64,000 bases of DNA from Cellvibrionales bacterium (GTDB taxonomy: Bacteria > Pseudomonadota > Gammaproteobacteria > Pseudomonadales > UBA7239). The first letter of the stretch is position 1. Each line of letters opens with the position of its first letter. The translations under genes and the position numbers were made by a program. Shown piece by piece: positions 3,463 to 55,505 of the stretch. Under the pieces are notes generated by a model that worked only from the letters and a program-made list of their open reading frames with translations, ran no database searches and had not been told where the DNA came from. The stretch is from the NCBI GenBank assembly GCA_043769275.1, contig JAYVJM010000079.1:1182-65181 (forward strand), read 5' to 3'.

Positions 3463-5127
3463 CTACCGTAGAGCCTCGTCAGCCTTGCGCACCCAAGGCG
3501 ACGACTTTCCTTTAAGGTGTTCTGTCAGTTGATTTTTGGCAGCCATTGCCGCTTCTTGATTGGGGAAGGCACCGTAGACTAATACATGCCACAGCTTGCC
3601 TTCATGCAGGGACTTGTAAATCAGATGTGGCTGCTTTTGGGGTAACTTCGCAGCCAAGGCGGCCATGCCGCCATCGCCATAAGCCGCAGCCAACTGCACT
3701 GTGTAGTAGTCGCGCGGCAATGACTTCCAGTCTTTTTGTGTGACAGGCATCAGCTCTTTTCTTGTTTTTGATTTCGCGCTAGTCGATGTTTTCGCTGTGT
3801 CTAGCTTATTTGCCGATGCTCGGTGCGCCTGTTTTTCTATTTGCTGCGAGGCTGCGCGGTGCGGCGTGACGGGTAGCTGCGCTATTTTTAATGAAGCCTC
3901 TGTAGCACCACTTGTCAAAACTAAAGGTTTGGGTTTGGGTTTGGGTTTGTGCTCGGTAGAGCCCGCCGTATCTTTATGCCGCTTGGGAGCCGTGGCCTCT
4001 TTAACTGGTTGCTGTGAAATAGCCACGCTGTTGGGGGCTTCCGGCACCAAACGTGCTCCTGATGCGGCGCTACTACCCACAGACATTGGCAAGTTTCCAA
4101 TGCCTTGCACCGCCTGGCTTAGGTCTGTGTGCGTTTCTCTTGGGTAATAAAGCCAGCCCGTTAGCAGCAGGCCGATCAACACGGCAAGAGCCACAAGCAG
4201 TTGTGGCCATGTCGGCATCGGCGTTTTGCGTGACGCTAAGGTAAAGCGCGCTTCTGTGTTCGGTAAATGCGCAGTCGGCAGCAATATACTAGCATCTAAG
4301 GTCGGCTCTCGGCGGGCGGCGTATCGATTGGCCGGCTTCGGCTCCGCATGCCTAAAATGGCCACGCGTAGCCGTTATTGCGCTGTCACTTGGTGCGTAGT
4401 CAACCGTGCTGCTCGCGTTAAATGCGCTGTCTTCATATACCGTGTCATGAAAGGGGTCGGCGTGAAATGCGCGTCCATCAGAGGGGTCGGCGACCTCGAA
4501 GAGGGAGCGGTGCGCCGACTCGCACAGCACAGCCTCCTCTGGCACAGCCTCTTCAGGCGCATCCATTTGTGGCGGAACCGGATTTGTCGATGGGTCTTCT
4601 GCCAGTACATCAATGCGCTGCACGGGGATCTCCATCTGTTGTGCGAGAGAGAGCAGCGAGCGCGTATCCAATACACCGGCAAACAGCACGGTGAGCCGAC
4701 TGTGGCGAGCCATCAATTCCAACAAAAGCTGACTGGCTTCTTCACGAAGTACAGCCGTACGCTCTATCACCACAAGTGCCATACGTGCACTGTGCGCCAC
4801 AAGATCGAGATACTCATGGATGCGCTGAAGGTCTGACTTGCCATCTCCGTGTGCGCAATAGATTGACCATTGCTGGATCAGCGCCGCGGTCACGTGTTCT
4901 ATATCGGCGCAACCATGTTCTTGCAAGGAAAAGCCCAGCAAAGCCACATGTAATTCGTTACGTAACAGGCTCGACATGTGTCGTAAAAATGTTATTGGGC
5001 TTTTGCCTGTCTCGCCAGACAACAAGATAAGCCCTGGGGCATGGCGGCAGATATGCACTACGCGTTCAATAATCTCCACGCGCTGCGTGCCATGTACCGA
5101 CATCTCCAATGGCTCATTCATAGTCAA
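3463..5127 (-). CDS. DamX-like SPOR-domain protein with N-terminal ATPase-like domain
   Basis: The C-terminus looks like a SPOR domain (YYTVQLAAAYGDGG...LWHVLVYGAFPNQEAAMAAKNQL). There is one central TM segment (WPQLLVALAVLIGLLLTGWLYY) and an N-terminal Walker-A-like SGETGKS. It lies directly downstream of aroB, as damX does in E. coli. Confidence 0.75.
   Translation of the reverse strand: MTMNEPLEMSVHGTQRVEIIERVVHICRHAPGLILLSGETGKSPITFLRHMSSLLRNELHVALLGFSLQEHGCADIEHVTAALIQQWSIYCAHGDGKSDLQRIHEYLDLVAHSARMALVVIERTAVLREEASQLLLELMARHSRLTVLFAGVLDTRSLLSLAQQMEIPVQRIDVLAEDPSTNPVPPQMDAPEEAVPEEAVLCESAHRSLFEVADPSDGRAFHADPFHDTVYEDSAFNASSTVDYAPSDSAITATRGHFRHAEPKPANRYAARREPTLDASILLPTAHLPNTEARFTLASRKTPMPTWPQLLVALAVLIGLLLTGWLYYPRETHTDLSQAVQGIGNLPMSVGSSAASGARLVPEAPNSVAISQQPVKEATAPKRHKDTAGSTEHKPKPKPKPLVLTSGATEASLKIAQLPVTPHRAASQQIEKQAHRASANKLDTAKTSTSAKSKTRKELMPVTQKDWKSLPRDYYTVQLAAAYGDGGMAALAAKLPQKQPHLIYKSLHEGKLWHVLVYGAFPNQEAAMAAKNQLTEHLKGKSSPWVRKADEALR
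3926..3949 (-). repeat. hexanucleotide tandem repeat (GGTTTG)x4 encoding KPKPKPKP in the DamX-like linker
   Basis: Read directly: ggtttg ggtttg ggtttg ggtttg. The protein shows HKPKPKPKPLV. Confidence 0.9.
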
Positions 5128-5141
5128 AGTATCCTGTTGCG

Positions 5142-6218
5142 CTAGCGGCAGGCGGTAATCGCCGATGCAATTTGCGCCAGTGTAATGTGCTCTGCAATCA
5201 TTGCCCTGCCTATAGCTTCCAGCAAAATCAATCGCATGCGGCCATCTATCACCTTTTTATCACGCTGCATATAGTCAATGAGCTGCTCGTTGCTCATCGC
5301 TGCTGGGGGTCTTATCGGCAAGCTCGCACGGGTAAACAGGCGAGGAATCCGCTCGGCATCGGCTGCGCTTATCAAGCCCATCTGGCAAGACATCGTTCCT
5401 GCCATCACCATGCCTACCGCAATCGCTTCACCGTGCAGCCAGTCGCAGTATCCTTGGCAAGATTCAATAGCATGCCCAAAAGTATGGCCTAGATTGAGTA
5501 AAGCGCGCAGGCCAGTTTCGGTTTCATCTGCCGCGACCACTGCGGCTTTATTCCGGCAAGACCGCTCTATGGCAAAAATCAACGAATCGGCATCGCGCGC
5601 CAGCAGCTTGTCTAGGTGCTTTTCCAGCCAGTTAAAGAACTCCACATCTGTGATTAAACCATACTTGATGACTTCCGCTAACCCTGCACGAAACTCTCGA
5701 TCTGGCAAAGTGGCGAGCGTGTCAATATCAATCAGCACACAAGCTGGCTGATGAAATGCCCCTATCATGTTTTTGCCAAGGGCGTGATTAATGGCAGTTT
5801 TACCGCCCACAGACGAATCAACCTGCGCGAGCAATGTGGTTGGAATCTGTATGAATTTTACGCCGCGTTGGTAGCTGGCCGCCGCAAAGCCTGTCGTATC
5901 ACCTACAACACCGCCACCCAGCGCAATCAACGTGGTTGTACGCCCGTGTTTTTCTGTGAGCAGCGCATCAAAAATCAGGTTGAGCGTGGCCAGATTTTTG
6001 TGTTGTTCACCGTCAGGTAAAATCACTTCGGAACACGAATATCCGCTAAATAAGGACTTGATTTTTTCGAGATACAGCGGGGCGACAGTGGTGTTGCTGA
6101 CTATCATAATTTGCTTTCCGTGCACGTGCTGAGTGAGCAGCGCGCCTTGCGTTAGCAGTCCGGAGCCGATATATATCGGGTAGCTACGCGCACCTAAATC
6201 AAGAGAAAGAGTCTGCAT
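5142..6218 (-). CDS. aroB: 3-dehydroquinate synthase
   Basis: 358 aa, with [45 protein letters not shown] and HTFGHAIE, typical of AroB. Confidence 0.95.
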
Positions 6219-6271
6219 TACGCACCTGAATAATAAGCGAAAAAACAGGGCAATTTATCACAGGAACGCCG

Positions 6272-7933
6272 TTACTGGCGCGCTGGCTGCGGCCTCCTAA
6301 ACAAGGCGATCAGAGACGCAAGCCACGGTGCAGCCAATAGCAGCACTGCCACACTCCAAACTGTACTTTCAACGCTGCAACCGAGTGCCCACCAGGCGAA
6401 AACGGCACTGGTCAGCATCAGTAAAGCCAGCCACGCCTCTTCCGCGCCGCGCACCAGCGAGCGATGACGCCAGTTAATCCAGCCTAAGATCAATGAAAAA
6501 GCAGCGGGTACCAGCAGGAAAATATCAGGTACATCTCGATGGCGAGCACTGACAGCCAATGTGAGCGTTAATGCTGCCACAGGAAAAGCGACGGCAAAAT
6601 GCAGAGAACTAATTTGCGTAGCATTGTTTGAAAGCAATCCAGTAATGCGACGACGTGCAGCCCCGTCGCCTGCACATTGGCCGATAGCACGAAAGATATT
6701 CCGCAATGGAGCCGGCTTTTCTGCAACCCAAGCCCGCATGCCGCGTGCGAAAAAATCCAAGATGGCAAGGCCGGTTAATAGCGTCAGTAGCCATGCGCCG
6801 CAATAGAGGCCGGCTGCCAGCCAGCCCAGCACCACGTCCTTTGCGTAACAAAAACCGACGAGCAGGACAGTGCCTAATGCTTGGGCACTGAGTGCCACCG
6901 GAAACAGTCGGCACGTTGTGGTGGCACGGAAAGTGGCGATGCTGCCCATAAGCAGGCCGAGGAGTACAGCAATCCCCGCCAATATTCGCCACTGCGGCCA
7001 TTCGCTGACAGGGCCTGTTAATGGAAACTTTTGTTCGCGCTCCGCGGTCAATAGCCCCCAATAACCGCCAGCAGTGCCTTCATCTGCCCGCTTCCAAGGT
7101 TGATCAAGTGCCTCAATGAGGTTGTACTGTACGCCGAGCCGATGAGCCTCCTGAATAAAACCGCGGATAAAGCGCGCTTCGTCAACTCGGCTCGCATGAG
7201 CCGCCCCTCGGGAAGGGCCGACACTGGGCCAGCCCGTTTCACCTAACATAATTTTTTTATCAGGAAACGCCGAAATAAACTTTTTTAGCTCTCGATGCAA
7301 CTGTCCAATCGCCTTGCTGACATCGGGTGCAGGATCACCCCAATAAGGCAAGATATGCACTAAAAGCGTATCTACTGATTTGGCGACATCCGGATAAAGC
7401 ATCCAGAAGTCATAAACCTCCGCATAGGCCACCGGCACAGGAGACTGCGCACGCACGCTATTGATGAGGGTAATCAGGCGGCTGGCTGGTAGATCGCGGC
7501 GCAATAAAACCTCATTGCCCACCACGAGGAGTTTGATTGTTTCTGGATAGCGGGCGGTCAGGGCAAGCGCTGCGGCAACCTGTTCTGCATTGCTTTTCTC
7601 ATTGCTGGATATCCATATGCCCAACAATATATGGAAGCCATAACGCTCGGCCACTGCCAGCACATCGGGGGCAGAACCCATACTGCTGTATAGCCGCAAG
7701 CAGTTTGTGAGCGGCCGGAGTGCTTTCATGTCTGCATCAAGCGTCGCCGCTGAAACATGGTCTTTTTCGAGACGCGGGTCACTACCGATCTCAAACGCGG
7801 TGTAAGAGAGGCAATCAAAATGAGCATCGGGCACATCCGGTAGCGTCACCACTCGCCCGAGCCAAGCCCATAAGCCGATATTGACGACAATAGCCAAGGC
7901 TGTTGCCGTTAAACAGAAGATAGCTTTTTTCAT
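6272..7933 (-). CDS. GH17-family beta-1,3-glucanase/transglycosylase domain fused to a C-terminal polytopic membrane domain (NdvC-like)
   Basis: It has an N-terminal TM anchor, then the GH17 signatures VVGNEVLLR (acid/base Glu region) and MLGETGWPS (nucleophile Glu motif). The last ~250 aa form about six hydrophobic helices. I set the start at MKKAIFCL (7933); the track ORF starts at 7948. Confidence 0.7.
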   Translation of the reverse strand: MKKAIFCLTATALAIVVNIGLWAWLGRVVTLPDVPDAHFDCLSYTAFEIGSDPRLEKDHVSAATLDADMKALRPLTNCLRLYSSMGSAPDVLAVAERYGFHILLGIWISSNEKSNAEQVAAALALTARYPETIKLLVVGNEVLLRRDLPASRLITLINSVRAQSPVPVAYAEVYDFWMLYPDVAKSVDTLLVHILPYWGDPAPDVSKAIGQLHRELKKFISAFPDKKIMLGETGWPSVGPSRGAAHASRVDEARFIRGFIQEAHRLGVQYNLIEALDQPWKRADEGTAGGYWGLLTAEREQKFPLTGPVSEWPQWRILAGIAVLLGLLMGSIATFRATTTCRLFPVALSAQALGTVLLVGFCYAKDVVLGWLAAGLYCGAWLLTLLTGLAILDFFARGMRAWVAEKPAPLRNIFRAIGQCAGDGAARRRITGLLSNNATQISSLHFAVAFPVAALTLTLAVSARHRDVPDIFLLVPAAFSLILGWINWRHRSLVRGAEEAWLALLMLTSAVFAWWALGCSVESTVWSVAVLLLAAPWLASLIALFRRPQPARQ

Positions 7934-7948
7934 GCGGACATCAAGCAC

Positions 7949-8350
7949 TTACTTAACAACACGAAGCGCCGGTCTTCCTTGCGTGCCAGTTTTTGGGGTT
8001 TCTGGCGGCGGCAAATTTGAGTCTTGCTCTGGCTCAAACATCATGCCGCGCCCATTTTCTCGCGCGTAAATGCCCAAAACAGCATGTATAGGCACATAAA
8101 TATCAGTCGATATTCCAGCGAAACGCGCGTTAAAAAATACAGATGTTTTGTCTATCAATAAATCAGCGACCGCAGATGGCGCGATATTTAGAACAATTTG
8201 GCCATCTTTTACGTATTGTTGCGGAACCGTCACATCATGCTCCATCGCATTCACGACGATGTGCGGCGTGCAGTCACTGTCGAGTATCCACTCATACAGA
8301 GCGCGCAATAAATAAGGCTTACTGGACTGCATTGCAGTAGGGTCTTTCAT
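7949..8350 (-). CDS. sspB: ClpXP adaptor / stringent starvation protein B
   Basis: KPYLLRALYEWILDSDCTPHIVV matches the SspB N-terminus. It follows sspA. The ATG at 8350 is preceded by AAGGGG. Confidence 0.9.
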   Translation of the reverse strand: MKDPTAMQSSKPYLLRALYEWILDSDCTPHIVVNAMEHDVTVPQQYVKDGQIVLNIAPSAVADLLIDKTSVFFNARFAGISTDIYVPIHAVLGIYARENGRGMMFEPEQDSNLPPPETPKTGTQGRPALRVVK

Positions 8351-8400
8351 GCAATCCAACCCCTTGTTTTCAAAGCTTGTGCCACGCGAGAGTCAACCAC

Positions 8401-26642: not shown

Positions 26643-29600
26643 TTAGCGATAGCCCTGCTTCTCACTCACCACTGCACCTTGGTATTTGCCGTCCAGCATC
26701 AACGTGCGCTCACTGGTGACATCCGGATTAAGTGGCTCTGCGTCAATGTAATCCGGTACGCCGTCACCGTCGTCATCGTCATCACAGGCATCACCTAACG
26801 CGTCCTCGTTGTTTCCTAACTGTTTATCCGTGTTTAACTGATCTTTATTGGCCACCAGCGGGCAGTTGTCTCTGCTGTCAGGCTTGCCATCGCCATCCGT
26901 GTCTTTGCCCTGTGGTGGCAACACGACAGTATCCTCGCAGCCTCGGCTAGTGACTGGCGTGCCCACTGACGTGCCAGGGCAGTAGTCGTTGATATTTGTA
27001 ACGCCGTCTTGGTCATCATCGTCGTTCGGGCGTTGCGCAGTAGAGCAACCGCTCGCGTTAACACCGGTCGCATCTGGCAGCGTGTTAGGGCAGGTGTCCG
27101 CGCTGTTGATAACGCTGTCTTTATCGTCATCGTCATTCGGGCGCTGTGCAGTAGAACAGCCGCTCTCGTTAACACCGGCTGCGCCTAACAACGTATTCGG
27201 GCAAGTGTCTGCACTGTTAATAACGTTGTCTTGGTCATCATCGTCGGTCGGACGTTGCGCAGAAGAACAACCGTTCGCGTCAACACCAAGCGCACCTAAC
27301 AACGTATTCGGGCAAACGTCGGCGCTGTTAATAACGCTGTCTTTGTCATCATCGTCGGTCGGACGTTGCGCAGAAGAGCAGCCATTCACGTCAACACCGA
27401 GCGCGCCTGCTGCTGTGTTTGGGCAAATGTCTTGGGCGTTGAGCACCAAGTCTTTGTCGTCATCGTCATTCGGGCGTTGCGCAAAAGAACAACCCTTCGC
27501 ATCAACCGCTGCACCGGCTGCTGTGCCCGGGCAAAGGTCTACATCATTCGGCACGTTGTCGTCATCGTCATCCGTTGATACGGCGGCAAAAGGCGCGTTA
27601 AAGCGTGCAACGGCCAGCGTATCGACTTTAGTGGCTGTTTGCGTGCTGCCCACCAGCAACACCTTGCCACCCTGCACCTCACTCAAGGCATAAGCACCGT
27701 CGTTCTCATTCGTGGTGAAATCAAGCAGCGTAGTGCCGTCTAATTTACCCGTCGCAGAGTAACGCGCTAGAAACATATCTTCCGCACCCACCGCACCCGC
27801 AACACCGCCGACTAAAATTGCGCCGTCACTTTGCAGAGTGATTGAAGTACCTGTATCGGCATCGTCTGCGCTCGTGGTGATGTCGGCGTGTACGATGCCG
27901 CTGCGACCAAAAGCTGTGTCAAAGCTGCCGTCGCTATTTAACTTCACGACGATCACTTCACCGCTGTTGGCGGCGAGAATTGACGAACCCGTAGCGACAA
28001 TTTTGCCGTCCGCACTGACTTTGACCGCATTTAACTGTGAAGCTAAACCAAGCGTGCTGATGGCGGCATAACCCGTGCTGGCGAAGCTGGTATCCAGCGC
28101 GCCATCGGCATTAAAGCGCGCTACCACAGAATCGGTGCGCGCGCAGGCGGCATCGACACACATCGCACCCACGGTCACCAGTTTGCCGTCGGCCTGCAGA
28201 GCAAGGCCGATGTTATTGCTGCTAGTGGCCACACCATAATTGAGGCGCTTGAGCCCGTTAACACCAAAAGTAGGGTCGAGTCTGCCGCTGGCATCAAGGC
28301 GCAACAAAAGGGCTTGTGATTGCGCACAGCTTGCGTCCACACAGACATAACCCGCCGCGACCAGCTTGCCGTCGGGCTGCTGCACGAGACTTTGCAGTTT
28401 TTCGTAGCCTGCGCCTGCGCTGAAGGCGTAAACCCCCGCCGTGCCGAAAGTCGTATCCGGTGCGCCGTTGGCATCAAAACGCGCCAACAAAACCTTTTCG
28501 CCACCTAGCGATGTTGGCGCGCCGTTCGCAAAACCGGCCATCACCAGCTTGTGATCGCTCTGCTCGACAATGGCCAAGGCTGCATCGTTTGCCGCAAGCG
28601 TAAGGTTGCTCACCACGCTGCCACCGCTGCCAAAGGCCGTGTCTAGCGTGCCATCGGCTTTGAATTTCACCAGTGTGATGGCCTCGTCTACATTTGCCGC
28701 ATCGCCTACGTTACTCAAGCCTGCCGCTACAGAGGTGCCGTCGACCAACTGCACTACCGCATTGGCGTAGCTGTAACCCGTGGCTCCCGCTGTGCTGGTT
28801 TTACCGTCTACATCAAAGCTGGCATCTAAAGCCACAGAATTTTGGCAGAGATCACCCGTGCCGTCGCCGTCGCTGTCTTTCTGATCGGCATTCACAACGA
28901 GCGGGCAGTTGTCGGCGGCATTAAGCTTGCCATCGCCGTCAATGTCATCGTCACAGGCATCACCCAACGCATCGCCATCTTTATTTTTTTGGTTGGCGTT
29001 GGATGCTGTTTTGCAGTTATCCACATTGTCTAACACGCCGTCGCCGTCGGTATCGGTTTTGGCATCTATCTGCACTTGTGAACAACCGTTTGCATCCACC
29101 ACAGCACCGGTTGCAGTATTCGGGCATTTATCGTCAAGATCGGGAATGTTGTCGCCGTCAGGGTCTTCACCGCGCGGTGTGGCATCGCAGACATCGCCCA
29201 AAGCATCGCGGTCAGCATTTTTTTGGTCAGGGTTTGGAGTGAGCTTGCAGTTGTCTCTGCTGTCTGGCACGCCGTCGCTATCTGCATCTGCCACCACAAC
29301 AAGGCAGCCATTATTGGCGATGGAACCTGCCACCAAGGGGCATTGATCCGCCGTATCAGCTACGCCGTCATTGTCGTCGTCCAAGTCGCAGGCATCACCG
29401 CCGTCTGGCGCGCCGTCGGTATTGATCTGATCGGCATTTACAACGGTAGGGCAATTGTCTGTAGCATCGACAACGCCGTCTTTATCGGTGTCGACCGGGC
29501 TGGTTGCTATAACACAGCCGACTGCATCCACGGTATCCGCATCTTGAGGCAAGGTGTTTGGGCATTGGTCTATATCGTCTTTCACGCCGTCATTATCGCC

Positions 29601-30557
29601 GTCGAGCTGTGATGTCGCGCAACCCTTAGCATCAACAACCGCACCCGCTGGCGTGCTTGGGCATTTGTCCAGCGCATCATTAACCGTATCTTTATCTGTA
29701 TCACGCTGTTCTGCTGCGCAACCGCTGGCATCCACTTTGGCTCCCGCCGCCGTACCCAAACACTTATCTTTTGTTTCGTCGTCTACTTTGTCGCCGTCTT
29801 GGTCAAGAATGATAAGCGTGCCGCTGAAGGTGTAGCTTTGAAAAGTATTGCCCGTCACGCCAATTGATAGACTGCCGCCAACATCGATGCCAACGCCCTC
29901 GCCGGTAAAGCTTTTACCGTCTGCCGAAAATGTCAGCTTCATGTAAAAACGCTCCTGGTCGGGATTGGCCAAAAAATACTGATTCTGCCCACCACACACA
30001 GTGCTGTTGCCCGTGCAACTGCCACCGGCTGCAGTGGGTACCGCAGGCGAGGAGTTCCACAGTAAGCGCGCATCACTACCTTGGTCTTTATTGCCGCCAA
30101 AGGTTATTGCTTGCCCTAGAGTCAATGCGCGCGTAGCGGCATCGTAAGCGACCGTACCGGCTCCAAACCGGTAAATAGCATTAGGCTGTGTGATGGTTGC
30201 ATACATCCAGCCAACAACTGGCGCATTTACCGCAACATCAGTCTTCCAGCTTGGGTAATCCAAAATACCTGTAACGGTTTTTTTGGCGGTATCAATTTTC
30301 CATACGCTGGCGTGATTGCCCACCGCCAGCGGGTTGGCATTGGCAGCATCACCGAAAGGCGGATTGCCTGGCACCATAGTCAAGCCGGGGTCTGATGTTG
30401 CCCCCACCGTATCAATGCCCGTAATGGCACCAGTCACATTGTAATAAGCCGCATAAGCGCTAGGCGTGGAAACAAGGAAGCTGGCGGCCAACAGGCCAAA
30501 GGCAAAGAGGCGCGCAGAAAAACCGCAACGGGAGATACGGGAGTAAATAGAACTCAT
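26643..30557 (-). CDS. 1304-aa secreted protein with thrombospondin type-3 Ca-binding repeats, delta-60-type repeats and a 37-aa tandem array
   Basis: There is a Sec signal ([15 protein letters not shown]) and a strong SD (AAGGAGG) before the ATG at 30557. TSP3 motifs recur ([50 protein letters not shown]..GDVCD). Six units of about 55-60 aa carry DG.LD..FG..G. The array consists of six DDDD.D.V.N..D.CPNT...G..GV...GCS.AQRP. units. Confidence 0.9.
   Translation of the reverse strand: [1304 protein letters not shown]
26931..27580 (-). repeat. six tandem 111-nt (37-aa) coding repeats inside the giant gene
   Basis: The motif atcgtc(g/a)ttcggg recurs at 27018 and 27129, a period of 111 nt. Protein units R1-R6 run from [17 protein letters not shown]... 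to [18 protein letters not shown].... Confidence 0.9.
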
Positions 30558-35925: not shown

Positions 35926-37806
35926 ATGTTGCACAAGGATTGGCGACGACTTGCTTTTTCCCTGCCCGCACTGTCTTTTGCGCTGTTGCTGCTAAGTCTT
36001 GCCGTCACTTTTTTTGCGCCAAAACAAATTCCGTGGGACGCATGGGGCTACCACTACTACTCCGGCGCGATGCTGCTTGAAAACCGCTTGGACAGCGACT
36101 ACTTCGCCGCATCCAGCCAGAGTTACCTCAACCCGCTGGTGCATGCGCCGTTTGCTGCGATGGTGCATGCGCACTGGCCAAGCGTGGCGGTAGGCTTTGT
36201 ACTCACTTGCTATGGCGCGCTGGCGTTGGTGCTGCTGGCTGTCTTTTATCGCGTAAGTTTGCATTTACGCAATGAGGAACTGCTGGCGGCACTGGCTTTA
36301 TCGTTGCTGCAACTGCTGGTGTGGTGGTGCATGGGCAGCAGCTTTGCCGATCTTTTTCTGCTCTGCCCTGTTTTTTTGGCGCTGATTTTTCTGTATCAAG
36401 CACAAGACACCCAAAAGATGCGCCAGACTCTCGCATCTGGCTTCTGTTTTGGTGTGGCTTTTGGGCTGAAATTTACCGCGATTATTTACGCGCCCGGGCT
36501 GGCGCTCTTGCTTTTATTGTGGGTGTGGCGCGGCACGCTTCGCTGGAACACTCTCGTTTTGTATCCGCTAGCGGCATTGTTGGGTTTGTGCGCCAGCTAT
36601 GGCTGGTGGGGCTGGCAGCTCTACCGGCATTTCGGCAACCCGTTTTTTCCTTTTTTTAATCACTATTTTCGTTACCCCTACTTCCCCATCAACACAGCCA
36701 CGCATAGCCGTTTTGTCAGTTGGGACGTGCTGGCGCAAGCAGTGCTGCCATTTCATATGGCCTCGACCGAACCAATGGTGTACGTAGAGCGGCTAATGCC
36801 AGACTTGCGGCCTGCCCTATTTCTAACTCTACTGCCGCTGGTTTTTTTTATTAAATACGGACTAAAACGTGCGACATACTTGCGCACAACAGAACAAGAT
36901 TTTTTGCTGTTTGTGTTGCTGACGCTGTACACATGGGTGTTTACCTCTGGCAATGGGCGTTATGGCATGGGCGTTTTTTTGCTGCTGGGGGCTGCGCTGT
37001 TTATGGTTTTGCGTGTGCTGCTGCCCGCCAAAATCCTGTGGCGCGCTGTGTTGTGGTTTTTGTTGCTGCAAGGAGCGGTGGTGTTTAGCGCAGTGGATTT
37101 CAATTTTGATCGCAGCAATTGGAAAGGCGAATGGTTTGCTATGGATTTTCGAGATGTGGCAAGCCAAAACAAGCAACTGATCTTAACATCCACCAGCATC
37201 AGCTATTCCGTGATGCTAAAAGACATGGGACAAGGCTCCACGCTGATGAACCTGTCGGGGCAATTCAACATGGAAAACAATGCGCTGATTCAGGCAAAAG
37301 TCGCCGCTTACAACGAGCGTATCTTTGGGGTCAGTGCGCTATCGCCCGATCTGCTGAAAGACAAAACACGACTGCAAACGGCTTTTTTTGATGAATTTGG
37401 CCGTTTTGGCTTGGCACTGGGCGACCCGGCCGGTTGTCGCCTGAAGCACTCAACAGTAGAGGGCATTTTGAATAATGACCTGCTGTTTTGCCAGCTCAAA
37501 CCGGATGCCTTTGCCATTGCGCGTTACGCAGAAAAAACGCAATGGGCGAGACACGCCGCCGCACTGCTTGAGCCGCTGTGTCCGGAAGCTTTTTCACCCA
37601 CGCAGAGCAGTGTGCGGATTACAGGAACGCACTTTGTTAAGCGTTACGATGCAGGCGACATAATGCTGCATCTATACCGCCCCGAAATAGCCATCGCTTT
37701 TAATATGACGCGCCCCAAACTAATGGCGAGTATTGATCTACGCGAGACGCAAACCCTTTCAAAAAATACTTGGCGGGAAAAATATTGCCTGCCGCTGCTA
37801 CGCTAA
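35926..37806 (+). CDS. polytopic membrane protein, candidate GT-C-fold glycosyltransferase (ArnT/PMT/YfhO-like role)
   Basis: 626 aa. About 11-12 hydrophobic helices span the first ~390 aa, and the first loop has acidic residues (ENRLDSDYF). A ~230-aa soluble C-terminal domain follows. It is the first gene of an operon with GT2 and GtrA-like genes. The fold is inferred from architecture and context only. Confidence 0.55.
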   Translation: MLHKDWRRLAFSLPALSFALLLLSLAVTFFAPKQIPWDAWGYHYYSGAMLLENRLDSDYFAASSQSYLNPLVHAPFAAMVHAHWPSVAVGFVLTCYGALALVLLAVFYRVSLHLRNEELLAALALSLLQLLVWWCMGSSFADLFLLCPVFLALIFLYQAQDTQKMRQTLASGFCFGVAFGLKFTAIIYAPGLALLLLLWVWRGTLRWNTLVLYPLAALLGLCASYGWWGWQLYRHFGNPFFPFFNHYFRYPYFPINTATHSRFVSWDVLAQAVLPFHMASTEPMVYVERLMPDLRPALFLTLLPLVFFIKYGLKRATYLRTTEQDFLLFVLLTLYTWVFTSGNGRYGMGVFLLLGAALFMVLRVLLPAKILWRAVLWFLLLQGAVVFSAVDFNFDRSNWKGEWFAMDFRDVASQNKQLILTSTSISYSVMLKDMGQGSTLMNLSGQFNMENNALIQAKVAAYNERIFGVSALSPDLLKDKTRLQTAFFDEFGRFGLALGDPAGCRLKHSTVEGILNNDLLFCQLKPDAFAIARYAEKTQWARHAAALLEPLCPEAFSPTQSSVRITGTHFVKRYDAGDIMLHLYRPEIAIAFNMTRPKLMASIDLRETQTLSKNTWREKYCLPLLR

Positions 37807-37818
37807 AGCAATAGCACT

Positions 37819-38985
37819 ATGCAGAAAAAGGAGTTTTTCGTGGAGCTGTCCATTGTTATTCCCTGCTTGAACGAGGCAAAAACCGTTGGTTCTTGTGTGA
37901 GTAAAGCACTGGCCTTTATGGCACACGCCGACATCCACGGCGAAGTGATTGTGGCTGACAACGGCTCCACCGATAATTCCGTCACCCTTGCTCGCTCGCA
38001 CGGCGCGCACGTGGTTCGCATTGCGCAAAAAGGCTATGGCAACGCACTGCGCGGCGGCATCGAAGCGGCGCGCGGGCAGTACGTCATCATGGGCGATGCC
38101 GATGCCAGCTATGATTTTTCTCGGCTGGAAGCCTTTGTCTCCGCTCTGCGCACCGGCGCCGATTTAGTCATGGGCAATCGTTTTCGCGGCGGCATCTCAC
38201 CCCGTGCTATGCCCGCACTTCACCGCTATGTTGGCAATCCTGTACTCAGTTTTATTGGTCGCCTGTTGTATCGAACCCATATTGGCGATTTTCACTGCGG
38301 CCTACGCGGCTTTGTGCGTCAGCGTATGCTCGATTTACACCTCAACAGTACCGGCATGGAGTTCGCCAGTGAAATGGTGATGAAAGCCTGCATGGCCGGT
38401 TACACCTTACAAGAAATACCCACCACCTTGCAGCCTGATGGCCGCGACCATCCGCCGCATTTGAGCAGTTGGCGCGACGGCTGGGCGCACCTCAAGCTAT
38501 TACTCTCTTACGCCCCAGACTGGCTGTTTCTATACCCTGCCCTGCTGCTGATCACCGTGTCTTTTGTGATGTTTGTTCTGTTGCTCGCCGGCAACTTCCA
38601 AGTGGGTGCAATTGGGCTGGGTATCCATACCTTACTTTATGCCGGCATGGGGCTGTGTGCAGGCCTTGGCATGTTGCTGTATTACTTGCTGGTACAGCGT
38701 TTGGTTGCGCGCAGAGGCTGGCTGCTGCACAGCCGTGTGCAGCCAAACCAGCATTCGCTGCTCTATAACGAAGACGCCCTTTTGCTGACTGGTGGCGGTT
38801 TGGCAACAGTCGGGGTGTTGGCGGGCATGCAAGCCCTGCATATCTGGAGCGGCCACGGCTTTGGCTCCTTGCTAGGATTTCATGACGTAACGCGATGGAC
38901 TGCGTTTTCGGTTTTCTGCCTGCTGGTCGGCTTTCAACTATTTTCTTACGCACTGCTACTTATGGTGATGGACAGGATTGATTAG
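37819..38985 (+). CDS. GT2-family glycosyltransferase with C-terminal TM helices (polyprenyl-phosphate sugar synthase type)
   Basis: LSIVIPCLNEAKTVG, VADNGSTDNS and the DxD motif (MGDADASYD). The C-terminal ~150 aa form about four TM helices, as in DPM1/GtrB/ArnC-like enzymes. Confidence 0.8.
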   Translation: MQKKEFFVELSIVIPCLNEAKTVGSCVSKALAFMAHADIHGEVIVADNGSTDNSVTLARSHGAHVVRIAQKGYGNALRGGIEAARGQYVIMGDADASYDFSRLEAFVSALRTGADLVMGNRFRGGISPRAMPALHRYVGNPVLSFIGRLLYRTHIGDFHCGLRGFVRQRMLDLHLNSTGMEFASEMVMKACMAGYTLQEIPTTLQPDGRDHPPHLSSWRDGWAHLKLLLSYAPDWLFLYPALLLITVSFVMFVLLLAGNFQVGAIGLGIHTLLYAGMGLCAGLGMLLYYLLVQRLVARRGWLLHSRVQPNQHSLLYNEDALLLTGGGLATVGVLAGMQALHIWSGHGFGSLLGFHDVTRWTAFSVFCLLVGFQLFSYALLLMVMDRID

Positions 38986-38999
38986 GCAGGTACAGCATC

Positions 39000-39719
39000 A
39001 TGGAAGAATCCTTATCATCCCCAAAAAGCACTCGCCTACACCGACGCTGGTGGGATTATGACGGCTACCCGCTGCGCGGATTAGCACACGCCATTGAGCG
39101 CGCATTGACACGTTGTGCAGAGAAACTTGAGGACGCGCGTGCGCTCGATTTTGGCTGCGGCGACAAACCCTACGCGGCATTGTTTGCGCGTCTCGGCATA
39201 CGCTATCAAAGCGCGGATATCGAAGGCACTGTCGACTTTCCCGTGCAAGCTAATGGTCAAGTAATGGCTCCCTCTGCCACATTTGAAATAGTGACGTCTT
39301 TTCAGGTTTTGGAACATGTGTGGGATATCGACACCTACCTGCACGAGTGCGCCCGCCTACTGCGCACTGACGGCGTACTGCTACTGTCGACACACGGGGT
39401 TTGGCTTTATCACCCGCATCCAGGTGATTTTCGTCGCTGGACGCGGGCAGGGCTGGTACGCGAACTGGAGTCTCGGGGCTTTGTCGTTGAATCGGTCGAG
39501 TCCATTGTCGGCCCCATGGGATGGACTTTAGTGATGCGTCTATTGGGCTATGTCTCCATTTTCCAAAAAATTCCGCTACTGGGCAGCGGCCTGACAGTCC
39601 TGTTTTCGCTTGTGATGAACCTACGCGCCCTACTAGAAGACAAAATAACGCCACACGCGGTTTTACAGGAAAACGCCTGCATGTACCTCGTCACAGCCAG
39701 AAAAGCTCATGCGGTTTAG
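39000..39719 (+). CDS. class I SAM-dependent methyltransferase with hydrophobic C-terminal segment
   Basis: It has SAM motif I (ALDFGCGDKPY) and a motif post-II region (FEIVTSFQVLEHV...DGVLLLSTH). The C-terminus GWTLVMRLLGYVSIF..LLGSGLTVLFSLVM is hydrophobic. Confidence 0.7.
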   Translation: MEESLSSPKSTRLHRRWWDYDGYPLRGLAHAIERALTRCAEKLEDARALDFGCGDKPYAALFARLGIRYQSADIEGTVDFPVQANGQVMAPSATFEIVTSFQVLEHVWDIDTYLHECARLLRTDGVLLLSTHGVWLYHPHPGDFRRWTRAGLVRELESRGFVVESVESIVGPMGWTLVMRLLGYVSIFQKIPLLGSGLTVLFSLVMNLRALLEDKITPHAVLQENACMYLVTARKAHAV

Positions 39720-50281: not shown

Positions 50282-52366
50282 ATGCGCACCATTTTATTTT
50301 CTTATCTACTATTCGCCGCTGTTATTTCATTTTTATCCAGTTTTGCGCTGGCCTCGCCCCCCCCCCAAAGTCTGCCAGAAACCGTGGTGACCGCCGCCAG
50401 AACGGCGCAGCCTTTAACCGTGGTGCTGGATGCCAAAACCCCGCACCAACCCTTGCCTGCGCAGGATGGTGCAGACTATTTAAAGGCAATTCCGGGCTTT
50501 TCTGTGGTGCGCAAAGGCGGCTCGGGCGGCGACCCTGTTTTTCGCGGCATGGCCGGCTCGCGCCTGAATATATTGCAAGATGGCGAAACCCTGCTGGGCG
50601 GTTGCGGCGGACGTATGGATCCACCAACAGCCTATATATACCCACAAAGCTACGACACCGTCACGCTCATAAAAGGGCCGCAAACAGTGCTGTACGGGGC
50701 GGGCAACGCGGCCGGCGTTGTGCTGTTTGAGCGTGAACGTGAACGCCTGAACGACAAGGAAGCAAAAGCCTACGCCAGTGCCTTGGGCGGCGACTTTGGC
50801 CGTCACGAAGAGGTATTGGATGCGCGCGGAGGCGTACCCGAGGCGTATCTACGCGGCGCAGTTACCAACGCACACCAAGGCGACTACCGCGATGGCGATG
50901 GCCAAAAAATCCATTCGCGCTACTCACGCGCCAGTGCGAATGGTGCCGTGGGTTTCACGCCTACTGAAAACAGCTTGCTTGAAGTGGCTGGTGCGCATAG
51001 CGATGGCGAGGCAGCCTATGCCGATCGCGGCATGGACGGCGCGCAGTTCACGCGCGACAACCTTGGCCTACGGCTACAACAAGACAACTTAAGCGAGCAC
51101 TGGAAAAAACTGGAGCTGCACAGTTACTACAATAATATCGACCACGTTATGGACAACTACAGCCTGCGTCCCTTAAACGGCGCAACACCAAAAGCCTCCA
51201 ATCCTTCACGTAAAGTGGTGGGCGGGCGTATCGCCGCGACGCTGGCGCTGACGGAACGCACGCAGACCGTCATAGGGCTTGATACCCTGCGCGATCAGCA
51301 CAGCAAACGCATAACGCTGAATCAAAGTTTATTGCCCTATCAAGACGTGCCGCGCACGGAGGATGCTCGCTTTGAACAGACAGGCGTTTTTGGCGAGGTC
51401 ACGCACCACTACAACACACAGCAACGGCTAATTAGCGGCTTGCGACAAGATCACTGGTGGGCGGAAGACCAGCGCAGCAAGATCAATATGCAAGCGAACC
51501 CCACCGCCGACCACGAACGCACAGCCCGCCTTAACAGCGGCTTTATGCGTTACGAACACGATGTAGCATCACTTGGCGGCACGCTGTATGCCGGCTTAGG
51601 CCACAGCGAACGCTTTCCTGATTACTGGGAATTGATAGCCAAAGAAAGTGCGCACAGCACCAGTGCTTTTGATGCCAAACCTGAAAAAACGACACAACTA
51701 GATACCGGCTACCTGTTTCACAGCGGCCAACTGAGCGGCGGTCTTTCGGCGTTTTACAACGAGATAAACGATTTTTTGCTGATTGAATCTGATTTTGCCA
51801 AACCCACCACCGGCCTACAGCGCTTTACGAAACCTTGCGGCTGCACAATGATAAAAACCGTAAAAGGGATACGCACGACCAGCATCACGCGCAATGTGGA
51901 TGCCCACACATGGGGTGGCGAAGCGGGCATTGGCTACGCCCTAAACCCCGTCTGGCGCACGGATGCGACACTGGCTTATGTACACGGCCAAAACAACACA
52001 GACAACCACCCATTGGCACAAATGCCCCCACTGGAAAGCCGCTTTAGCCTGATGTATGACGATGGAACATGGTCTTACGGCGGCCTGCTGCGCATGGTGG
52101 CAAAGCAGACGCGCGTGAGCCTTCACCAAGGCACCATTGCCGGACAAGATATTGACGAATCTAGCGGTTTTAGTGTGTTTTCGCTTAACGCTAGCTGGCG
52201 CGCAAACGCTCACGTACAGCTCACAGCGGGCATCGACAACCTGCTAGACAAAAACTACGCCGAACACCTCAGCCGTGCCGATGCAACGATGACAGGTTAC
52301 GATCAAATTCGGCAGGTCAATGAACCAGGGCAAACCGTGTGGGCGCAGGTACAGGGCTTTTTTTAG
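50282..52366 (+). CDS. oprC: TonB-dependent copper receptor, OprC/NosA type
   Basis: It has a signal peptide, a TonB box (ETVVTAAR), a plug domain and a terminal aromatic residue (VQGFF). CGGRM (Cys, then Met four residues later) and HVM (His-x-Met) sit at the positions expected for the OprC Cys/Met/His/Met copper site. Confidence 0.8.
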   Translation: MRTILFSYLLFAAVISFLSSFALASPPPQSLPETVVTAARTAQPLTVVLDAKTPHQPLPAQDGADYLKAIPGFSVVRKGGSGGDPVFRGMAGSRLNILQDGETLLGGCGGRMDPPTAYIYPQSYDTVTLIKGPQTVLYGAGNAAGVVLFERERERLNDKEAKAYASALGGDFGRHEEVLDARGGVPEAYLRGAVTNAHQGDYRDGDGQKIHSRYSRASANGAVGFTPTENSLLEVAGAHSDGEAAYADRGMDGAQFTRDNLGLRLQQDNLSEHWKKLELHSYYNNIDHVMDNYSLRPLNGATPKASNPSRKVVGGRIAATLALTERTQTVIGLDTLRDQHSKRITLNQSLLPYQDVPRTEDARFEQTGVFGEVTHHYNTQQRLISGLRQDHWWAEDQRSKINMQANPTADHERTARLNSGFMRYEHDVASLGGTLYAGLGHSERFPDYWELIAKESAHSTSAFDAKPEKTTQLDTGYLFHSGQLSGGLSAFYNEINDFLLIESDFAKPTTGLQRFTKPCGCTMIKTVKGIRTTSITRNVDAHTWGGEAGIGYALNPVWRTDATLAYVHGQNNTDNHPLAQMPPLESRFSLMYDDGTWSYGGLLRMVAKQTRVSLHQGTIAGQDIDESSGFSVFSLNASWRANAHVQLTAGIDNLLDKNYAEHLSRADATMTGYDQIRQVNEPGQTVWAQVQGFF
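50357..50366 (+). repeat. C10 homopolymeric tract in the oprC-like 5' coding region
   Basis: Read directly: tcg ccc ccc ccc caa (S P P P Q), immediately after the predicted signal peptide. Confidence 0.95.
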
Positions 52367-55330: not shown

Positions 55331-55505
55331 TGCCGATTCCTGTTGGGTGTGCCACTTGATGGGGCATTTAGTGTAATGCAGGCTGCGTATTGTCACATCC
55401 TCAATTTGTGCGCAAAGTCGCGAAGTGATGCCTAGCCGCTGCGCCTGCTTTTATGCACAATGCCGAAGCATCAAAAACTACCCTATAAAAAATAAGGAGA
55501 TCGCC

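What the first reader, a model, noticed from the sequence alone, without database searches (positions are those of the whole stretch)
6219..7948. GH17 domain fused to a polytopic membrane domain (NdvC-like) where aroK is expected
The GNE and ETGWPS signatures are the two catalytic-Glu motifs of glycoside hydrolase family 17, which comprises beta-1,3-glucanases and transglycosylases. The domain has an N-terminal anchor and is followed by ~250 aa containing about six TM helices. That layout resembles Bradyrhizobium NdvC, which is needed for beta-1,6 branching of cyclic beta-glucans. No NdvB-type GT2 glucan synthase is adjacent. The gene lies between sspB (gap 0-15 nt) and aroB (53 nt). This interrupts the otherwise conserved blocks, and the usual aroK upstream of aroB is absent.
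Basis: partly seen in the sequence, partly recalled or inferred. Interest (0 to 1): 0.55.

Follow-up and report, generated by a model that had tools for sequence, protein, structure and literature searches.

The report
Membrane-anchored GH17 glucan transglycosylase (NdvC-type)
The gene encodes an ordinary member of a widespread bacterial family, in which a periplasmic beta-1,3-glucan-remodelling enzyme is tied to the inner membrane by eight helices; only its position between sspB and aroB is unusual.

Summary
An intact minus-strand ORF runs 6272..7933 from the ATG (553 aa), or to 7948 from a GTG (558 aa). It encodes an N-terminal signal-anchor helix, a GH17 (beta/alpha)8 domain and seven further TM helices. 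Both catalytic glutamates are invariant across 118 homologues (E141 in VVGNE, E232 in GETGWPS).

The best solved relative is the Rhizomucor beta-1,3-glucanosyltransferase RmBgt17A, by sequence (E 6e-19) and by fold (TM-score 0.86-0.87).

The architecture is common. More than 2,400 homologues of about 550 aa exist, and more than 580 GTDB species representatives carry one. These include Pseudomonas, Rhodanobacter, Azospirillum and Bradyrhizobium, where such proteins are named "beta-(1-6) glucans synthase", the NdvC name.

About 1 in 8 family members sit beside an NdvB-type GH17-GT2 synthase. The rest are unlinked, as here: the 64 kb window holds no such synthase.

The gene lies in a same-strand array petABC-sspAB-GH17-aroB-SPOR with no aroK. 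The nearest AroB relatives keep pilMNOPQ-aroK-aroB-SPOR. GC3 gives no sign of recent transfer.

By-product: the family aligns end to end with NdvB-type synthases, with the GT2 domain as an insertion. The homology of the membrane helices is suggestive, not proven.

Verdict: a new member of a known kind, of low interest.

The parts
6272..7933 (-). Complete CDS of the GH17-7TM (NdvC-type) protein: 553 aa from the ATG. An alternative GTG start at 7948 gives 558 aa.
   Evidence: ORF list. P0001 is 100% identical and is called at 553 aa in five assemblies.
7859..7930 (-). N-terminal signal-anchor TM helix (residues 2-25), preceded by Lys-Lys. The N-terminus is inferred to be cytoplasmic.
   Evidence: Hydropathy and charge analysis; AF2 helix H2-25.
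7004..7828 (-). Periplasmic GH17 (beta/alpha)8 catalytic domain (residues about 36-310).
   Evidence: Pfam PF00332. PDB 4wtp, E 5.9e-19 over residues 69-307. Foldseek against 4wtp/4wtr, TMt 0.86-0.87, rmsd 2.3-2.5.
7502..7525 (-). VVGNEVLL motif containing the putative acid/base Glu141.
   Evidence: Aligns with VGSEVL of RmBgt17A. G139, N140 and E141 are invariant in 118 sequences.
7223..7243 (-). GETGWPS motif containing the putative nucleophile Glu232.
   Evidence: Aligns with ETGWPS of 4wtp. The active-site mutant 4wtr carries Ala at exactly this Glu. E232 is invariant.
6989..7015 (-). Conserved GPVSEWPxW linker between the GH17 domain and TM2. NdvB-type synthases share it.
   Evidence: G307, P308 and W315 are invariant or nearly so. 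The linker aligns with GPVVEIPQW of the NdvB-like protein.
6296..6991 (-). Seven-helix membrane domain. TM2-TM4 span residues 315-400, a basic cytoplasmic loop spans 401-436, and TM5-TM8 span 437-546.
   Evidence: AF2 full-length model, pLDDT 94.9. TM-only model, pLDDT 91.8. Positive-inside charge distribution. No solved-structure match.
6533..6544 (-). RHRD motif (R464-H465-R466-D467) in the short TM5-TM6 loop, predicted to face the periplasm. R464 and D467 are invariant.
   Evidence: Invariant columns in A1 and A3. Position. The side of the membrane is inferred from the topology.
7949..8359 (-). sspB (ClpXP specificity-enhancing factor), immediately upstream on the same strand.
   Evidence: Pfam SspB E 3.3e-34; NCBIfam.
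5142..6218 (-). aroB (3-dehydroquinate synthase), 53 nt downstream on the same strand. A SPOR/DamX-like gene follows at 3463..5127.
   Evidence: TIGR01357, 388 bits against a cut-off of 305. SPOR domain.

Best explanation
The gene encodes an inner-membrane-anchored, periplasm-facing GH17 retaining beta-1,3-glucanosyl transglycosylase of the NdvC type.

Shown here:
- The protein has a GH17 TIM barrel with both catalytic glutamates, flanked by one N-terminal TM helix and seven C-terminal TM helices.
- It has no GT2 domain.
- Its GH17 domain is closer to the GT2-less family members than to the GH17 domains of NdvB-type synthases encoded in the same genomes.

Inferred:
- The N- and C-termini are cytoplasmic and the GH17 domain is periplasmic.
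- The enzyme cannot polymerise glucose from UDP-glucose.
- Instead it cleaves a beta-1,3-glucan chain made by another enzyme, most likely an unlinked NdvB-type GH17-GT2 synthase. It then transfers the glycosyl-enzyme intermediate to a glucan acceptor. By analogy with Glt20, the Bradyrhizobium GH17 transglycosylase taken here to be the NdvC catalytic domain (own knowledge), and with RmBgt17A, this would create beta-1,6 branches or kinks, or beta-1,3 elongation, in periplasmic or cyclic glucans.
- The 7-TM module holds the catalytic cleft at the membrane surface. It appears to derive from the same scaffold as the TM region of NdvB-type synthases, so it may dock next to the synthase's exit.
- The gene is probably co-transcribed with sspAB and aroB.
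For: GH17 domain:
- Pfam PF00332 is above its gathering score.
- phmmer against RmBgt17A (4wtp) gives E 5.9e-19, with GNE and ETGWPS aligned to the catalytic motifs. The 4wtr active-site mutation falls on the aligned Glu.
- The AF2 model has pLDDT 94.9 and pTM 0.92. Its best PDB fold match is RmBgt17A, with TMt 0.86-0.87.
- E141 and E232 are invariant in 118 homologues.

Architecture and family:
- More than 2,400 homologues, mostly 520-570 aa, some named beta (1-6) glucans synthase.
- At least 583 hits in GTDB species representatives. The central ORFs of the 80 kept loci have the same length class and lack QxxRW.
- The TM-only profile hits 438 clusters at 50% identity, always at about residues 305-550 after a GH17 domain.

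Link to NdvB:
- An NdvB-like GH17-GT2 gene is adjacent in L007, L014, L024, L026, L035, L036, L042, L053, L059 and L066, often as a tight tandem.
- The window's GH17 domain is 41-55% identical to the GT2-less copies in those loci, against 30-38% to the NdvB-type GH17 domains.
- hhalign aligns the family to NdvB-like proteins over 3-546 against 11-853, with the GT2 domain as an insertion in the cytoplasmic loop.

Topology: the positive-inside rule fits 8 TM helices with N-in and C-in.

Biochemistry of relatives: Glt20 of B. diazoefficiens and RmBgt17A cleave from the reducing end and form beta-1,6 elongation or branching (PMC11005184). NdvB is a GT2+GH17 protein and NdvC is hypothesised to be a beta-1,6-glucan synthase (PMC10514313).

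Operon: no terminator-like or promoter-like site lies in either the sspB-GH17 or the GH17-aroB spacer.
Against: - No glucan synthase was found in the 64 kb window, and the rest of the genome could not be searched. The substrate source is therefore unproven.
- The linkage specificity (beta-1,6 against beta-1,3) cannot be read from the sequence.
The Bradyrhizobium protein named beta-(1-6) glucans synthase that was examined has no NdvB-like neighbour within 8 kb, so that name may be a homology transfer to a paralogue.
- The Pfam score is only 1.2 bits above threshold and covers only the C-terminal quarter of the model.
- The TM-domain homology to NdvB is weak: hhalign probability 65-68%, and HMM E-values of 2e-4 to 0.5.
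Confidence: 0.62

Rival explanations
1. The protein is a membrane-anchored beta-1,3-glucanase (laminarinase). It would degrade exogenous beta-1,3-glucan that has entered the periplasm, for nutrition, and would not remodel self-made glucan.
For: - GH17 includes bacterial laminarinases such as Formosa 6fcg, which matches at E 1.7e-7 by sequence and 2.8e-11 by fold.
- JGI pipelines name homologues 'exo-beta-1,3-glucanase' or 'glucan 1,3-beta-glucosidase'.
- In two Chromatiaceae-type contigs the homologue lies near an OprB carbohydrate porin.
- No synthase is present in the window.
Against: - The protein is far closer to transglycosylases than to laminarinases. RmBgt17A scores E 5.9e-19, and identity to NdvB-type GH17 domains is 30-38%. 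Identity to laminarinase-type GH17 of Vibrio and Haliscomenobacter is 27%.
- There is no PUL, SusCD or sugar-catabolism context here.
- About 10 of 80 family loci are physically linked to a glucan synthase, and none to catabolic genes.
- The JGI names are automatic.
Confidence: 0.12
2. The protein is a transglycosylase, but it acts on a non-cyclic envelope or biofilm beta-1,3-glucan (a curdlan-like exopolysaccharide), or itself carries out cyclisation. It would not be the beta-1,6-branching step of cyclic beta-1,3;1,6-glucan synthesis defined for NdvC.
For: - Characterised proteobacterial GH17 domains differ in their products: beta-1,3 elongation, beta-1,4, or beta-1,6 elongation or branching (PMC11005184).
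- Pseudomonad NdvB GH17 domains are proposed to cyclise (PMC10237404).
- The window protein is only 40% identical to the Bradyrhizobium proteins.
- Most family members are not linked to ndvB.
Against: No direct evidence distinguishes this from the best explanation. The family-level association with NdvB-type synthases favours periplasmic or cyclic glucan as the substrate.
Confidence: 0.2
3. The protein is a decayed or non-functional remnant of an NdvB-type synthase that lost its GT2 domain, carried along passively in the operon.
For: hhalign places the GT2 domain as a clean insertion or deletion relative to this family.
Against: - The ORF is intact and identical in five assemblies.
- The catalytic residues and 40 or more other columns are invariant across 118 sequences down to 35% identity.
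- The TM domain carries its own invariant residues, R464 and D467.
- The architecture is conserved across several classes of Proteobacteria.
- GC3 matches the neighbouring genes.
Together these indicate purifying selection on a functional protein.
Confidence: 0.03

Closest known systems
NdvC of Bradyrhizobium japonicum/diazoefficiens ('beta-(1-6) glucans synthase'). Its GH17 domain, characterised as Glt20, is identified with NdvC here from my own knowledge, not from the papers read.
   Same: - Same size class (about 510-560 aa).
- Same layout: N-terminal anchor, GH17 domain, GPVS-x-(F/W)P-x-W linker and a polytopic C-terminal domain, with no GT2 domain.
- 40% identity over the GH17 domain to Bradyrhizobium proteins carrying that name.
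- 32% identity over 536 aligned columns, including the TM region, to a Bradyrhizobium family member about 80% identical to them.
   Different: - Not next to ndvB or ndvD; instead embedded in a housekeeping array, sspAB-X-aroB.
- Gammaproteobacterial host.
- The Bradyrhizobium proteins have RxKD where this protein has RHRD.
- Orthology to the genetically defined ndvC, and beta-1,6 specificity, are untested.
[quoted passage not shown]
   Same: - Periplasmic GH17 domain, 30-38% identical.
- Same N-terminal anchor and same GPV-E-PxW linker.
- Profile alignment is collinear through the TM helices to the C-terminus.
   Different: - Lacks the roughly 300-aa cytoplasmic GT2 domain and its QxxRW motif, so it cannot be a Leloir-type polymerase.
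- The TM similarity is weak.
RmBgt17A, the Rhizomucor miehei GH17 beta-1,3-glucanosyltransferase (PDB 4wtp/4wtr)
   Same: Best solved relative by sequence (E 5.9e-19) and by fold (TMt 0.87, rmsd 2.3 A). The catalytic motifs are identical in register.
   Different: RmBgt17A is a soluble fungal enzyme with no membrane domain, and identity is only 24%.
Bacterial GH17 laminarinases (Formosa FbGH17A, PDB 6fcg; Vibrio VvGH17)
   Same: GH17 fold and the nucleophile motif region.
   Different: Much lower similarity (19-27% identity). The laminarinases are secreted or PUL-encoded hydrolases with no polytopic membrane domain.

Membership tests
Glycoside hydrolase family 17 (CAZy GH17, clan GH-A) | (beta/alpha)8 TIM-barrel fold | tested here: met
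   AF2 model, pLDDT 94.9. Foldseek top hits are the GH17 structures 4wtr/4wtp (TMt 0.86-0.87), 8akp and 6fcg.
Glycoside hydrolase family 17 (CAZy GH17, clan GH-A) | Two catalytic Glu: the acid/base in the (V)GNE motif and the nucleophile in the E(T/V)GWPS motif | tested here: met
   Both align to RmBgt17A, and the 4wtr active-site mutant has Ala at the aligned nucleophile. E141 and E232 are invariant in 118 sequences.
Glycoside hydrolase family 17 (CAZy GH17, clan GH-A) | Family HMM match above the curated threshold | tested here: met
   Pfam PF00332 scores 29.4 bits against a gathering score of 28.2. This is marginal, and only profile positions 225-303 align. The dbCAN HMM was not available. 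The phmmer result against PDB GH17 (E 5.9e-19) supports the assignment independently.
Glycoside hydrolase family 17 (CAZy GH17, clan GH-A) | Activity on beta-1,3-glucan | not testable with these tools
   Requires an enzyme assay.
NdvC-type membrane GH17 proteins | Architecture: N-terminal anchor + GH17 + C-terminal polytopic membrane domain, about 500-570 aa, no GT2 domain | tested here: met
   The same architecture appears in the 80 GTDB loci and in the TM-profile hits.
NdvC-type membrane GH17 proteins | Full-length sequence similarity to the Bradyrhizobium protein(s) annotated beta-(1-6) glucans synthase | tested here: met
   32% identity over 536 columns, including the TM region, to a Bradyrhizobium family member (E 1e-68). 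That member is about 80% identical to the proteins carrying the name. 40% identity over the GH17 domain to P0485.
NdvC-type membrane GH17 proteins | Orthology to the genetically defined ndvC of B. japonicum USDA110 | tested here: inconclusive
The named Bradyrhizobium homologue that was examined lacks an ndvB neighbour within 8 kb, so it may be a paralogue.
NdvC-type membrane GH17 proteins | Genomic linkage to ndvB (GH17-GT2 synthase) and ndvD | tested here: not met
   There is no NdvB-like gene in the 64 kb window. In the family, about 10 of 80 loci are linked and the rest are not, so linkage does not hold for most of the sequence family.
NdvC-type membrane GH17 proteins | Required for beta-1,6 linkages in cyclic beta-1,3;1,6-glucans | not testable with these tools
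   Needs genetics and glucan chemistry.
NdvB-type cyclic beta-glucan synthase (GH17-GT2) | Cytoplasmic GT2 domain with D,D,D,QxxRW motifs | tested here: not met
   No GT2 Pfam hit, no QxxRW, and the GT2 region is a gap in the profile alignment.

The most novel reading that the evidence does not exclude
NdvC-type proteins may be GT2-less derivatives (or ancestors) of NdvB-type cyclic-glucan synthases that kept the whole periplasmic GH17 domain plus the TM scaffold. The 7-TM module has no relative among solved structures and carries an invariant R-H-x-D motif predicted to face the periplasm. It would then be a functional glucan-handling or synthase-docking platform and not a mere anchor. 'Orphan' copies such as this one, wired into a stringent-starvation (sspAB) operon, would act in trans on glucan from an unlinked synthase under stress.
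Probability: 0.35. Interest if true: 0.4.

Novelty: new member of a known kind. Interest (0 to 1): 0.2.

Why it matters
On its own it matters little. It adds one more member, from a deep-branching, uncultured gammaproteobacterium, to a large family that standard pipelines already annotate as GH17 or beta-(1-6) glucans synthase.

It does mark this organism as a likely producer of periplasmic or cyclic beta-1,3/1,6-glucans, which are involved in osmoadaptation, biofilm antibiotic tolerance and host interaction in other Proteobacteria.

Three by-products are more useful for the family than for this locus:
- Most NdvC-type genes are not linked to a synthase.
- The family aligns end to end with NdvB-type synthases minus the GT2 domain.
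- The TM module is a confidently predicted fold with no solved homologue and its own invariant residues.

These give testable hypotheses about what the so-far ignored membrane half of NdvC does.

Tried and rejected
- NCBIfam gave no hit for the protein.
- Pfam gave nothing for the TM half.
- Protein comparison on the two alignments failed internally, so hhalign was run locally instead.
- The TM-only model found nothing there (best E 0.34, TM-score 0.26 or less). In particular, BcsA-type channels did not appear, so structural homology of the TM module to cellulose-synthase-like channels is not supported by this test.
- Bhagwat et al. 1996 (PMC178234) is not held, so the original NdvC description and sequence could not be consulted.
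- The closest homologue, P0002 (56%), lies in a different context with no DNA available. No relative with the sspB-X-aroB arrangement other than the same organism was found.
- The genome-contig scan did not return the window's own species; the best hit was 46%. The rest of its genome therefore could not be searched for ndvB, opgGH or aroK.
- Recent horizontal acquisition was rejected as an explanation for the position: GC3 is 0.540, against 0.46-0.57 in the surrounding genes (0.50-0.57 apart from sspB at 0.46).
- The GT2 at 37819..38985 was rejected as a partner synthase. It is a 388-aa PF00535-only, ArnC-like protein next to a PMT_2/ArnT-like gene, 30 kb away.
Full report
**1. What is in the sequence**

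The region holds one intact minus-strand ORF, 6272..7948 from a GTG (558 aa). Public gene calls start at the ATG at 7933 (553 aa), and the identical protein P0001 occurs on contigs from five independent assemblies with the same neighbours. All residue numbers below use the 553-aa form.

The sspB stop codon (7949-7951) directly abuts the GTG and lies 15 nt before the ATG. aroB starts 53 nt after the stop.

The surrounding same-strand array is petA-petB-petC-sspA-sspB-[this gene]-aroB-SPOR/DamX-like. A consensus scan finds no promoter-like or terminator-like site in either spacer, so co-transcription is plausible but unproven.

**2. The GH17 domain is real**

- Pfam PF00332 scores 29.4 bits against a gathering score of 28.2, using only the C-terminal quarter of the model. 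This is a weak pass, expected for a model built mainly on plant and fungal sequences.
- Independent support is strong. phmmer against PDB sequences gives E 5.9e-19 to RmBgt17A (4wtp), the Rhizomucor miehei GH17 beta-1,3-glucanosyltransferase, over residues 69-307.
- In that alignment VVGNEVL pairs with VGSEVL and GETGWPS with SETGWPS. The deposited active-site mutant 4wtr carries Ala at exactly the aligned Glu.
- In an alignment of 118 homologues down to 35% identity, G139-N140-E141 and E232/G234/P236 are invariant.
- An AlphaFold2 model built on that alignment is very confident (pLDDT 94.9, pTM 0.92).
- Its best matches among solved structures are 4wtr/4wtp (TM-score 0.86-0.87 on the target, rmsd 2.3-2.5 A). 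Other GH17 structures follow, then clan GH-A barrels.

**3. Membrane architecture**

Hydropathy and the model agree on eight TM helices:
- one N-terminal helix (residues 2-25, preceded by Lys-Lys);
- seven helices after the barrel (315-334, 340-367, 370-400, 437-461, 470-490, 497-516, 521-546);
- two short helices in a basic loop (401-436).

The distribution of Lys and Arg fits N-in/C-in: 8 K+R in the 398-447 loop, and RRPQPARQ at the C-terminus. This places the GH17 barrel in the periplasm. That topology is an inference.

The TM half has its own conserved features. R464 and D467 of an RHRD motif are invariant, and the motif lies in the predicted periplasmic TM5-TM6 loop. An (R)EEAWLA motif starts TM7.

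**4. How common is it?**

It is very common.
- The word-indexed search returned 2,410 significant homologues among the scored candidates. Most are 520-570 aa and cover more than 90% of the query. Some are named 'beta (1-6) glucans synthase', 'glycoside hydrolase family 17' or, by JGI's pipeline, 'exo-beta-1,3-glucanase'.
- In the 80 best loci the central ORF has the same length class and no QxxRW motif. The hosts include Pseudomonas, Rhodanobacter, Dyella, Luteibacter, Acidocella, Rhodospirillales, Burkholderiales and Chromatiaceae.
- RefSeq plasmid and chromid records of Azospirillum and Bradyrhizobium annotate it as 'glycosyl hydrolase family 17 protein'.
- A profile of the TM half alone finds 438 clusters at 50% identity among 1.84 billion proteins. 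In full-length hits it always sits at about residues 305-550 behind a GH17 domain.

The nearest relative of the window protein is only 56% identical.

**5. Relation to NdvC and NdvB**

Literature:
- Group 4 periplasmic glucans (cyclic beta-1,3;1,6) are made by NdvB, a GT2+GH17 protein. NdvC is 'hypothesized to be a beta-1,6-glucan synthase' (PMC10514313).
- Glt20, a GH17 transglycosylase from B. diazoefficiens, cleaves laminari-oligosaccharides from the reducing end and transfers with beta-1,6 elongation or branching, as does RmBgt17A (PMC11005184). That Glt20 is the GH17 domain of NdvC is my own knowledge; the paper does not mention NdvC.
- Pseudomonad NdvB has been modelled with a periplasmic GH17 domain, a TM region and a cytoplasmic GT2 domain (PMC10237404).

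Comparison with Bradyrhizobium:
- The window protein is 32% identical over 536 aligned columns, TM region included, to a Bradyrhizobium barranii family member.
- That member is itself about 80% identical to Bradyrhizobium proteins named beta-(1-6) glucans synthase.
- The window protein is 40% identical over the GH17 domain to one of those named proteins, P0485.
- P0485 has no NdvB-like neighbour within 8 kb, and I could not obtain the original NdvC sequence. Family membership is therefore established, but orthology to the genetically defined ndvC is not.

Linkage to NdvB within the family:
- tblastn of all fetched loci with a GH17-GT2 protein from L007 shows an NdvB-type gene directly beside the GT2-less gene in L007, L014, L024, L026, L035, L036, L042, L053, L059 and L066. 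This is often a tight tandem.
- No such gene appears within about 8 kb in the other roughly 70 loci, or in contigs L006, L008, L009 and L090.
- The window's GH17 domain is 41-55% identical to the GT2-less copies in those loci, but only 30-38% to the NdvB-type GH17 domains there. It therefore belongs to the NdvC-type subfamily.

**6. A by-product: the family looks like NdvB minus GT2**

- Profile-profile alignment (hhalign) of the 118-sequence family against nine NdvB-type proteins runs from residue 3 to 546 of the query and from 11 to 853 of the synthase. The whole GT2 domain appears as an insertion in the query's basic cytoplasmic loop.
- With the GH17 domain and linker removed, TM2-4 and TM5-8 each still align in order to the corresponding synthase helices (E 4.6e-5 and 6.1e-5, probability 65-68%).
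- An HMM of the TM half was searched against 6,087 ORFs from all fetched DNA. Its first non-family hits are NdvB-type C-termini, all in the same register (E 2e-4 and 4e-3; weaker domain hits follow in three more).
- Compositional bias of TM helices inflates such scores, so I rate this homology as probable, not shown.

**7. The gene-order observation**

- The two nearest AroB relatives (65-66% identity) sit in the canonical pilMNOPQ-aroK-aroB-SPOR-gltB array.
- The window has no aroK, pilQ or pilM.
- So the aroB-SPOR pair has been detached from pilMNOPQ-aroK and placed behind sspAB plus the GH17 gene. It is not an insertion into a conserved sspB-aroB block.
- The gene's GC3 (0.540) lies within the range of nearby genes, so there is no sign of recent transfer.
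- The closest homologues sit in unrelated contexts, so the placement is lineage-specific.
- AroB's best hits reach only 66% identity, and the window's species is missing from the GTDB scan. The organism is therefore a poorly sampled gammaproteobacterial lineage.

**8. Mechanism and verdict**

The best-supported reading is a periplasm-facing, membrane-tethered retaining GH17 transglycosylase. It would remodel beta-1,3-glucan made by an unlinked synthase, by branching, kinking or elongation. The 7-TM module would hold it at the membrane, possibly beside the synthase.

- The fold, the catalytic residues, the architecture and the family association with NdvB are shown.
- The topology, the substrate source, the beta-1,6 specificity and co-transcription are inferred.

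Rivals (a catabolic laminarinase, another glucan substrate or linkage, or a relic protein) are less likely for the reasons given under each.

The finding is correct but ordinary: a new member of a known, automatically annotated family. It carries a mildly unusual chromosomal address and an under-studied membrane half.

Noticed in passing
window 3463..6218 (-), compared with L093 and L094: aroB and the SPOR/DamX-like gene are detached from the pilMNOPQ-aroK block that precedes them in the nearest AroB relatives. No aroK, pilQ or pilM lies anywhere in the 64 kb.
   Followed up: partly
window 26643..30557 (-): A 1,304-aa protein with thrombospondin type-3 repeats (184 bits) and DUF5122 beta-propeller repeats. 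It looks like a large secreted or surface protein.
   Followed up: no
window 35926..41915 (+): A glycosylation cluster: a PMT_2/ArnT-like 626-aa membrane glycosyltransferase, a 388-aa PF00535 GT2 (ArnC-like), two SAM methyltransferases and a GT4. It is unrelated to NdvB-type synthases and lies about 30 kb from the GH17 gene.
   Followed up: partly
window 48574..50058 (-) and 50282..52366 (+): A 494-aa protein combining a PI-PLC X domain with a ricin-B lectin domain, divergently adjacent to a TonB-dependent receptor.
   Followed up: no
window 55425..56765 (+): A cytochrome P450 (446 aa) that overlaps, on the opposite strand, an ORF at 55401..55880 next to a DUF3426/zinc-ribbon protein (54125..55396).
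   Followed up: no
L006 11475-12572 and L090 7612-8709: In two Chromatiaceae-type contigs the NdvC-type gene keeps a conserved neighbourhood: a GDSL lipase, an ABC/FtsX pair, the GH17-TM gene, a LigB-family gene and an OprB carbohydrate-selective porin. A functional link to the porin is possible but untested.
   Followed up: no
L029 7878-10769: A variant architecture: a 963-aa ORF with the GH17 domain followed by about 700 aa, roughly twice the usual C-terminal length, with no QxxRW motif.
   Followed up: no
L095 8001-9524 (Bradyrhizobium tropiciagri): A protein named 'beta-(1-6) glucans synthase' has no NdvB-like gene within 8 kb. A near-identical family member lies between IS elements on a B. 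barranii plasmid (L091). The NdvC name may therefore be applied to paralogues.
   Followed up: partly
window 6296..6991 (-), model mf1d3996ba459: The 7-TM module is predicted with high confidence (pLDDT 91.8) but has no Foldseek match in the PDB. It carries an invariant R-H-x-D motif predicted to face the periplasm.
   Followed up: partly
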